The notes under the pieces are model-generated. The model was not told the origin of the DNA. It ran no database searches and was given only the letters and a program-made list of their open reading frames with translations. A program made the position numbers and the translations under genes. Positions 24,229 through 25,169 of a stretch of DNA of 64,000 bases are shown here, one piece after another. Source of the DNA: Eledone cirrhosa (taxonomy: Eukaryota); the NCBI GenBank assembly GCA_964016885.1, contig CAXHJY010001127.1, positions 50,775-114,774 on the forward strand, read 5' to 3'. The first letter of the stretch is position 1, and every line of letters begins with the position of its first letter.

Positions 24229-24613
24229 TATATATATATATATATATAAAGGTTTACATATACATAAAGTCATAGATATATATGTGGCAACCGCTCACGA
24301 TGTGGCTCTATGAAGAATTAATAAATTAAATAACCAGAGCAATATATCATAAATCTTGTCCTTAGAATTATTAGATAAAATATATACCATTTCCTCTCCC
24401 AATTAGCATAATTAACCATATAAAAAATCAATTAGACCAAGCTATAAGAATAAAAGCTCTTATGAAGAAATTTCCGACAAATAACCGCGGTGGCCCCAAT
24501 AGAGTATTTATCCAAAATTTTAACAGCATGTAGAAACTAACTAAATATACCATCAACCATACACAATTAGGTGCAAATTCAAACTCAGAAGAAATGTGTA
24601 CATACCGTAATTA

Positions 24614-24694
24614 TATCTCTACCATGGTTTCATCCGTATTTTTAGACATCCAATTTGTAGGATATGTCCGGAGTATCGGATTCATCAGGAGACA
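24614..24694 (-). ncRNA. Type I hammerhead ribozyme, family H7
   Basis: Minus strand TGTCTC-CTGATGA-ATCCG...CGGAT-GAAA-C-CATG-G-TA-GAGATA; palindromic loop 3. Confidence 0.8.
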
Positions 24695-25169
24695 AACTCA
24701 AAATTAGACATTTAGTTTTCCAAAGTGATCGCGCCAAAAATAGATTCAAAAATGGCTAAGAATCGTGACGTGGCAGTGGTCAAGTTAGAAAGAATGTGAT
24801 TAGTTGCTTACGGCGAGTAGGCTTGTTGCTAGAAAGCGCAGCCAAATATCGGGAGAGTATTTATCCAAAATGTTAACAGCATGTAGAAACTGACTAAATA
24901 TACCGTCAACCATACACAATTAAGCGCAAATTCAAACTCAGAAGAAATGTGTACATACCGTAATGGTATATATAATGGTATATATTTTATCTAATAATTC
25001 TAAGGACATGATTTATGATATATATATATATATATATATATATACGTATATGGAGCATTATTCTATATGTGTGTGTATAGTAAACGTATATTAAGTCGCG
25101 CTGTGAGTATTTTCAGCTGTGATTATGTCACTGTATATGTTTCAGTACGTTATATATATATATACGAAT

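What the first reader, a model, noticed from the sequence alone, without database searches (positions are those of the whole stretch)
24343..25021. Ribozyme between ~110-bp direct repeats, enclosed by ~48-bp inverted repeats
Seen: agagtatttatccaaaat...gtacataccgtaat at about 24500 and 24855 flank the well-formed HHR at 24614-24694; on the minus strand the first repeat begins about 10 nt after the predicted cleavage site. Inference: partial tandem of a ~355-nt unit, the size expected for a retrozyme-like circular RNA copied slightly more than once.
Basis: partly seen in the sequence, partly recalled or inferred. Interest (0 to 1): 0.7.

Follow-up and report, generated by a model that had tools for sequence, protein, structure and literature searches.

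The report
Two-armed Penelope-type hammerhead retrozyme copy
This is one rearranged copy of a roughly 657-base non-coding repeat, found at a thousand or more places in an animal genome, that carries a predicted self-cutting RNA motif and was likely pasted into TA-repeat DNA by Penelope-type jumping-gene enzymes copying one RNA from both sides of a break; the 355-base unit first proposed occurs nowhere else.

Summary
The direct repeats (121 bp, 353 apart), inverted repeats (50 bp) and type I hammerhead are real, but the ~355-nt unit is not. The family's unit is ~657 bp, and the 353-bp junction is unique in this 3.0-Gb genome. The insertion starts ~100 bp further left (~24245), so the left inverted repeat is internal. 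The direct repeat is a partial tandem missing ~310 bp; the right inverted repeat is a short second arm.

The family has ≥1,000 copies beside (TA)n, with two fixed start sites ~105 nt apart. Among 99 position-ordered arms starting at site 1, the opposite arm started at site 2 in 43 and at site 1 in 0. Arms within one insertion are about twice as alike as separate insertions. Eleven arms end exactly at the predicted cut (0 at a distal control, 7 at a control 10 nt away), suggesting past self-cleavage, but most arms run through it.

Verdict: a non-autonomous, likely Penelope-mobilised retrozyme. RNA, circle and partner element were not shown. This scan found the same two-armed pattern before, in other families of this genome.

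The parts
24229..24244 (.). left (TA)n target microsatellite; boundary blurred by TATA microhomology
   Evidence: sequence, junction print
   Evidence: maps to unit positions 554-658
24342..24391 (-). internal site-1 region of arm 1 (the 'left inverted repeat')
24245..24853 (-). arm 1, first stretch: unit positions 554-658 then 1-521, 90% identical to a natural tandem copy; RNA sense is the minus strand (inferred from hammerhead orientation)
24614..24694 (-). type I hammerhead: stem I 24694-24689 with 24619-24614, core CUGAUGA 24688-24682, long stem II with distal hairpin, GAAA, 2-bp stem III with palindromic CAUG loop; predicted cut 24620|24619
24671..24699 (-). predicted pseudoknot: GAGU (24699-24696) with ACUC (24674-24671) in the internal loop of stem II
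   Evidence: U-A to C-G double change in 3 of 31 copies; next pair has 2 further double changes but is mostly unpaired
24854..24964 (-). second copy of the direct repeat: unit 171-281 of the next unit after a ~310-nt skip; ends ~8 nt short of the second predicted cut site; junction unique in the genome
24961..24985 (.). arm-to-arm junction with 3-nt AAT microhomology and a 12-bp templated duplication
24974..25019 (+). arm 2: inverted 46-nt piece whose outer end is start site 1 (the 'right inverted repeat')
25018..25044 (.). right (AT)n target microsatellite

Best explanation
The locus is one insertion of a ~657-bp non-coding, hammerhead-bearing repeat family (a non-LTR retrozyme) that was likely reverse-transcribed into a cut (TA)n tract by a Penelope-like element's enzyme, predicted to prime from both DNA ends at two fixed sites ~105 nt apart on one RNA. 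Shown: the unit length, the two fixed outer ends, their strict pairing, the (TA)n targets, the covarying ribozyme fold, and an excess of arms ending at the cut. Inferred steps: (1) tandem copies are transcribed and some RNA self-cleaves; (2) a GIY-YIG endonuclease cuts both strands of (TA)n; (3) one 3' end primes at site 2 and the other at site 1 on the same RNA or RNA lineage; (4) most cDNAs run through the cut position, so the template is a circle (about 50%) or an uncut multimer or jumped monomers (about 50%); (5) the two cDNAs are joined by microhomology. In this copy the site-2 arm covered ~1.6 units of template and lost ~310 nt by a skip or later deletion, which made the 121-bp direct repeat. 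The site-1 arm stopped after ~46 nt, which made the inverted repeat.
For: Unit ~657 bp in head-to-tail copies, with one 44-unit array. 903 exact hammerhead-core matches and 1002 exact (TA)n-plus-site-1 junctions, reversed-pattern controls 0. Of 99 site-1 arms from the first 100 listed places: 45 had no second arm, 43 had an opposite arm from site 2, 4 ended in the tail, 7 elsewhere, 0 at site 1. In some insertions neither arm contains the other (L003, L019, L304, L315, L322), which needs two priming events. Within-insertion divergence is 2.9% (38 opposite-arm pairs) and 3.2% (40 tandem pairs) against ~6.1-6.3% between insertions; young sister-subfamily insertions differ by 0-3% internally. 11 genome-wide arms end exactly at the cut and all 11 are true junctions, against 0 at a distal control (prefix frequencies 44 vs 31; binomial p=0.003). 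In 6 of 8 two-armed insertions with one arm ending at the cut, the partner ends within 25 nt of it; background is 1 of 86 arm ends, and that one is one of the 6. Stem II and the pseudoknot covary. The genome holds RT+GIY-YIG elements, and one such family shows the same two-ended rule with ends ~5 nt apart (read by eye). Literature: two RT start sites equal the tail, both strands are cut and extended, and a dimer is predicted (PMC11167929); an inverted 5' copy gives flanking inverted repeats with the tail often at one end (PMC8557442).
Against: No autonomous partner found: none of 40 GIY-YIG loci examined (a small part of 10,596 candidates) carries this unit as its terminal repeat. The tail (~105 nt) is longer than the published 30-40 bp. 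Priming sites here have TA microhomology to the target, whereas PAc initiated without homology. A second control 10 nt before the cut gave 7 matches against 11 (p=0.19; 3 of the 7 are partners of cut-ended arms). In the 142-arm unbiased sample the excess near the cut is not significant by bins (p 0.08-0.23), and 62 of 68 arms reaching it run through. The hammerhead fold is not the lowest-energy fold of this copy. Copies are related, so counts are not fully independent; L277-L279 and L280/L298 look duplicated and were kept.
Confidence: 0.8

Rival explanations
1. One reading: a ~355-nt circular retrozyme RNA copied slightly more than once.
For: Direct repeats 353 apart flank a hammerhead; 170-400 nt is the published size range (PMC7229834 abstract).
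Against: The junction is unique in the genome. 0 of 48 core spacings are near 353. Among 294 fetched (partly overlapping) loci with family sequence, only this locus shows such a short repeat. The two repeat copies differ at 5 of 106 sites.
Confidence: 0.02
2. A MITE (non-autonomous DNA transposon) with 50-bp terminal inverted repeats that captured a ribozyme fragment.
For: 98% identical 50-bp inverted repeats next to TA dinucleotides.
Against: The left repeat lies 100 bp inside family sequence. Inverted arms range from ~25 nt to more than one unit across copies, and the two outer ends are never the same site.
Confidence: 0.02
3. The unit is only the terminal repeat (pLTR) of a long coding Penelope-like element, seen here as a truncated end.
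For: It has the architecture of PLE ends (PMC8557442); PLE pLTRs carry type I hammerheads with palindromic helix III (PMC4209133); the genome is rich in GIY-YIG elements.
Against: The unit closes on itself with no ORF between successive hammerheads. Copies sampled by position are bounded by (TA)n or unrelated DNA. 0 of 40 GIY-YIG loci share it.
Confidence: 0.06
4. Same family and enzyme, but the inverted arm comes from the first cDNA folding back and copying itself rather than from a second priming on RNA.
For: Explains the high arm-to-arm identity and near-palindromic joints such as L316. In this window arm 2 is contained in arm 1, so it fits this copy.
Against: Fails where the partner carries the tail or other sequence that the first arm lacks (L003, L019, L304, L315, L322).
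Confidence: 0.1
5. The 121-bp direct repeat arose after insertion, by a DNA-level deletion in a longer partial tandem or a local duplication, not by a skip during reverse transcription.
For: The two copies share 4 minority variants. Divergence of 4.7% between them is at the upper end for within-insertion pairs.
Against: Internal jumps with short untemplated joints are seen in several other insertions (L021, L242, L317, L320), as expected of template skips. The piece ends ~8 nt from a cut site, where other arms end.
Confidence: 0.35

Closest known systems
Metazoan non-LTR retrozymes (Cervera and de la Pena 2020, PMC7229834: abstract, passages, one Results section and Discussion read; Li, Clavereau and Pollet 2026, bioRxiv 10.64898/2026.07.22.740005: parts 1-3 of 5 read, supplements closed)
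   Same: Non-coding, low-GC tandem unit with one type I hammerhead per unit; monomers to large multimers; co-occurs with PLEs; unit length within the 51-972 bp range of Li et al.
   Different: Longer than the 170-400 nt RNAs of the 2020 paper; long stem II with a predicted Watson-Crick pseudoknot; most copies are dispersed 1-2-unit two-armed insertions; expression and circles not shown here; no pLTR relative identified.
Penelope-like element insertions with inverted 5' copy and tail (Craig et al. 2021, PMC8557442, passages read; Frangieh et al. 2024, PMC11167929, parts 1-2 of 4 read)
   Same: Partial tandems, inverted arm making flanking inverted repeats, two RT start sites whose interval is the tail, tail at one end only, (TA)n targets, mostly uncut template.
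   Different: No ORF; tail ~105 nt (~120 in the sister subfamily) instead of 30-40; start sites have TA microhomology to the target; a minority of arms end at the ribozyme cut, which Frangieh et al. did not detect in RNA reads.
Non-autonomous Chlamys elements such as MRC1 (PMC8557442, passage read)
   Same: Non-coding PLE dependants forming pLTRs and multicopy head-to-tail insertions.
   Different: Those resemble their autonomous family at the 3' end and the clade lacks canonical hammerheads; here there is a hammerhead and no matching autonomous family was found.

Membership tests
Type I hammerhead ribozyme | Core CUGAnGA ... GAAA ... NUH with three stems, open at stem I | tested here: met
   89.8% of cells paired; 29 double-change cells vs 10.4 in shuffles; slid controls 27-45% paired. 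No Rfam hit.
Type I hammerhead ribozyme | Self-cleavage | not testable with these tools
   Indirect only: 11 arms end exactly at the predicted cut vs 0 and 7 at two controls
Non-LTR retrozyme | Tandem unit with a hammerhead in at least two consecutive units | tested here: met
   Family level: L014, L200, L145 and a 44-unit array with 32 of 43 near-full units having an intact core. This window copy has only one hammerhead.
Non-LTR retrozyme | Non-coding, no LTR/PBS/PPT, GC under 50% | tested here: met
   Stops in all three RNA-sense frames; no ORF of 100 aa over the insertion; region GC 0.37. PBS/PPT were not searched separately.
Non-LTR retrozyme | Expressed as linear and circular monomer RNA | not testable with these tools
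   No RNA run was listed
Non-LTR retrozyme with ~355-nt unit | Recurrent 353-bp period | tested here: not met
PLE-mobilised non-autonomous element | Partial tandem, inverted 5' arm, two start sites/tail, microsatellite targets | tested here: met
PLE-mobilised non-autonomous element | Sequence shared with the pLTR of an autonomous PLE | tested here: inconclusive
   0 of 40 GIY-YIG loci out of 10,596 candidates; only an 11-nt end motif shared with one family, not above shuffles for the two main subfamilies
Autonomous PLE | RT plus GIY-YIG ORF between terminal repeats | tested here: not met
MITE | Fixed terminal inverted repeats at both true ends | tested here: not met

The most novel reading that the evidence does not exclude
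A dimeric Penelope reverse transcriptase primes both ends of one DNA break at two obligatorily different sites on a single ~657-nt RNA, runs round it when it is a circle and runs off it when its pseudoknotted hammerhead has cut it. The genomic copies would then record self-cleavage, circularisation and two-ended copying of one molecule in the germ line.
Probability: 0.4. Interest if true: 0.6.

Novelty: new member of a known kind. Interest (0 to 1): 0.33.

Why it matters
Retrozyme mobilisation by Penelope-like enzymes is proposed in the papers read, but the mechanism is not shown there. This family gives countable footprints: 43 mixed against 0 same-site ends, near-identical arms, and both arms stopping at the ribozyme cut. 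These turn the proposal into a defined in vitro test with two named start sites. The locus itself is an ordinary, rearranged and probably inactive copy. The same footprint was already noted by this scan in other families of this genome, so the added value is one more family, with an unusually long tail and a predicted pseudoknotted ribozyme.

Tried and rejected
Rfam at gathering and E-value thresholds: no hammerhead model hit. Folding the 353-nt segment: no excess structure. RNA evidence: no RNA holder listed; the three runs laid were contigs of unrecorded kind from one sample and said nothing about expression. Partner search: 40 GIY-YIG loci; two (L100, L122) merely neighbour family copies. 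The RT+GIY-YIG family at L122 shares only an end motif, and its sequence past that motif is unrelated. Coding potential of the unit: only short frames; not searched against protein databases. 44-unit array as master source: rejected, because units within dispersed insertions are closer to each other (0.6-6%) than to any array unit (4-15%). RNA-editing scars (lead from e1-8803865): A>G exceeds T>C on the RNA strand overall (14.2 vs 8.6 per 1000) and by columns (42 of 171 vs 32 of 221, p=0.013). It does not in rare variants (odds ratio 1.02), and there is no 5'-G avoidance, so editing is not claimed. One search's simple pattern missed this hammerhead because stem II is longer than 40 nt. The fold script had a length slip, redone. 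Literature searches returned no paper on this family or counting mixed versus same-site ends; unread supplements of PMC11167929, PMC8557442 and the 2026 preprint may bear on that.

Full report
Observation. The window holds a 121-nt direct repeat (24501-24621 and 24854-24974, 93%, spacing 353) and a 50-nt inverted repeat (24342-24391 and 24974-25023, 98%). Between them, on the minus strand, lies a type I hammerhead with core at 24688-24682 and predicted cut at 24620|24619. A descriptor of my own found it and five other hammerhead-like motifs in the window, and none in 20 shuffles. Rfam does not detect it. In this copy the hammerhead fold is 4.8 kcal/mol above the minimum; stem II pairs have probability about 0.7 and stem I about 0.3. 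Across 31 hand-picked diverse copies, 89.8% of cells pair, stem II shows G-C/A-U/U-A exchanges, and a predicted pseudoknot between the 5' flank of stem I and the internal loop of stem II has a U-A to C-G change in 3 copies. Related copies inflate such counts, but slid controls pair only 27-45%.

The family. The genome is 3.0 Gb, and the locus has 4,155 first-look candidates. Exact patterns give 903 hammerhead cores and 1,002 junctions of (TA)n with one fixed end, with reversed-pattern controls at 0. Other copies match the locus only up to 24851 and then continue into sequence that leads back to the start, so the unit is ~657 bp. Of 48 same-strand core spacings, 40 are 641-710 bp, 8 are longer and none is near 353. 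A sister subfamily at 72-75% identity has a ~690-bp unit and the same build. One array holds 44 units over ~30 kb with a 6-unit higher-order repeat; 32 of 43 near-full units have an intact core. The RNA-sense frames are closed by stops.

This copy. Against a natural tandem the window reads: unit 554-658 and 1-521 (24241-24851), then 171-281 (24854-24964), then an inverted 46-1 (24974-25019), with (TA)n on both sides. The insertion thus starts ~100 bp left of the stated start, and the left inverted repeat is internal. The junction that makes the 353-bp spacing has one match in the genome, itself, and no other of 294 fetched, partly overlapping loci shows a comparable short repeat. The two repeat copies share 4 minority variants and differ at 5 of 106 sites. 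They are best read as the same segment of two successive units with ~310 nt lost. Whether the loss happened during copying or later cannot be told. The second piece stops ~8 nt before the next predicted cut.

Ends. Copies begin at one of two AT-rich sites ~105 nt apart. I took the first 100 listed of the 1,002 site-1 junctions, in chromosome order, and obtained 99 arms. 45 had no second arm, 43 had an opposite arm from site 2, 4 ended inside the tail, 7 ended elsewhere, and 0 ended at site 1 (five loci that look duplicated were kept). That sample cannot show site-2/site-2 insertions; I saw none by eye in the best-hit set (22 of 24 inverted copies mixed, 2 other) or the hammerhead-anchored set. 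In several insertions neither arm contains the other, which excludes simple fold-back there. Opposite arms differ by 2.9% and tandem passes by 3.2%, against about 6% between insertions, so both come from one RNA or one source. The large array is not that source.

Cleavage. Eleven arms genome-wide end exactly at the predicted cut, and all are real junctions. A distal control gave 0 (p=0.003 after scaling by prefix frequency). A control 10 nt before the cut gave 7 (p=0.19), of which 3 are partners of cut-ended arms. Leaving out the one found through that control, 6 of 8 two-armed insertions with a cut-ended arm have the partner ending within 25 nt of the cut; background is 1 of 86. In the unbiased sample 2 arms end exactly there and a third probably does, the binned excess is not significant, 62 of 68 run through, and 34 of 142 exceed one unit. 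I infer that the ribozyme did cut some templates, while most were circles, uncut multimers or precisely jumped monomers. An A>G excess on the RNA strand exists in shared but not in rare variants and lacks the neighbour bias that I recall for ADAR, so editing is left open.

Enzyme. The genome has 10,596 GIY-YIG candidates and long RT+GIY-YIG frames. One coding family shows the same two-armed build with ends ~5 nt apart (by eye), but beyond an 11-nt motif it does not resemble this unit. None of 40 GIY-YIG loci has the unit as its terminal repeat. The partner is unidentified, and Penelope dependence is inferred from the footprint.

Comparison. Craig et al. (PMC8557442, passages) describe partial tandems, an inverted 5' copy giving flanking inverted repeats, a 30-40-bp tail often at one end, and (TA)n preference. 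Frangieh et al. (PMC11167929, parts 1-2 of 4) show two internal RT start sites bounding the tail, cutting and extension of both strands, a predicted dimer, and mostly uncut template. Cervera and de la Pena (PMC4209133 passages; PMC7229834 abstract, passages, one Results section and Discussion) define type I hammerhead repeats as non-LTR retrozymes, show circles in coral, mussel and axolotl, and propose PLE mobilisation. Li et al. (bioRxiv 10.64898/2026.07.22.740005, parts 1-3 of 5) give units of 51-972 bp and link them to pLTRs. PMC6962438 (two passages) only counts hammerheads in a squid genome. Earlier notes of this scan report the same two-armed pattern in 310-, 422-, 467- and 520-600-nt families of this genome. 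These are unchecked leads; none matched this sequence.

Verdict. Real features with a wrong unit. This is a rearranged copy of a new ~657-bp member of a known class, whose copies carry a clean and testable record of two-ended priming. Interest 0.33.

Noticed in passing
window 23816-24224: A second, unrelated hammerhead element sits directly left of the finding: core at 24039-24005 (minus strand) inside 74-bp inverted repeats (23834-23907 / 24098-24171, 99%), flanked by (TA)n. Further copies at 30019-30402 and 57100-57366; a near-identical hammerhead occurs in L101, L114 and L127.
   Followed up: partly
window 3493-3541 (+), 42118-42069 (-), 58305-58349 (+): Three related hammerhead-like motifs of another family with a palindromic AT-rich stem III.
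   Followed up: no
G000:C1:92985616-93016029 (L192, L193, L311-L313): A 44-unit array of this family that keeps site 1 at one end and an inverted arm from site 2 at the other, later expanded with a 6-unit higher-order repeat.
   Followed up: partly
L122:2350-5436 and L333-L361: A coding RT+GIY-YIG family whose two-armed insertions end at two sites ~5 nt apart, one at each end.
   Followed up: partly
L014:1960-2060 (minus strand); L122, L179 equivalents: A hairpin just 3' of start site 2 is predicted in all three subfamilies folded and is a candidate signal for the reverse transcriptase. It is absent from this window copy's outer end.
   Followed up: partly
window 24730-24740 (minus strand): A motif upstream of the hammerhead, kept in most subfamilies aligned, resembles an E2F site (recalled consensus, not tested); possible internal promoter.
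   Followed up: no
window 25192-25592 and 26378-27231: A 181-bp partial tandem (145 nt identical) and a 161-bp tandem array whose unit has many dispersed relatives in the window; no hammerhead found by my descriptor.
   Followed up: no
window 32066-37197 and 37535-37602: A 69-bp satellite of ~75 copies at 96% identity giving stop-free frames up to 1730 codons, followed by a marginal tRNA-like hit, possibly a SINE head.
   Followed up: no
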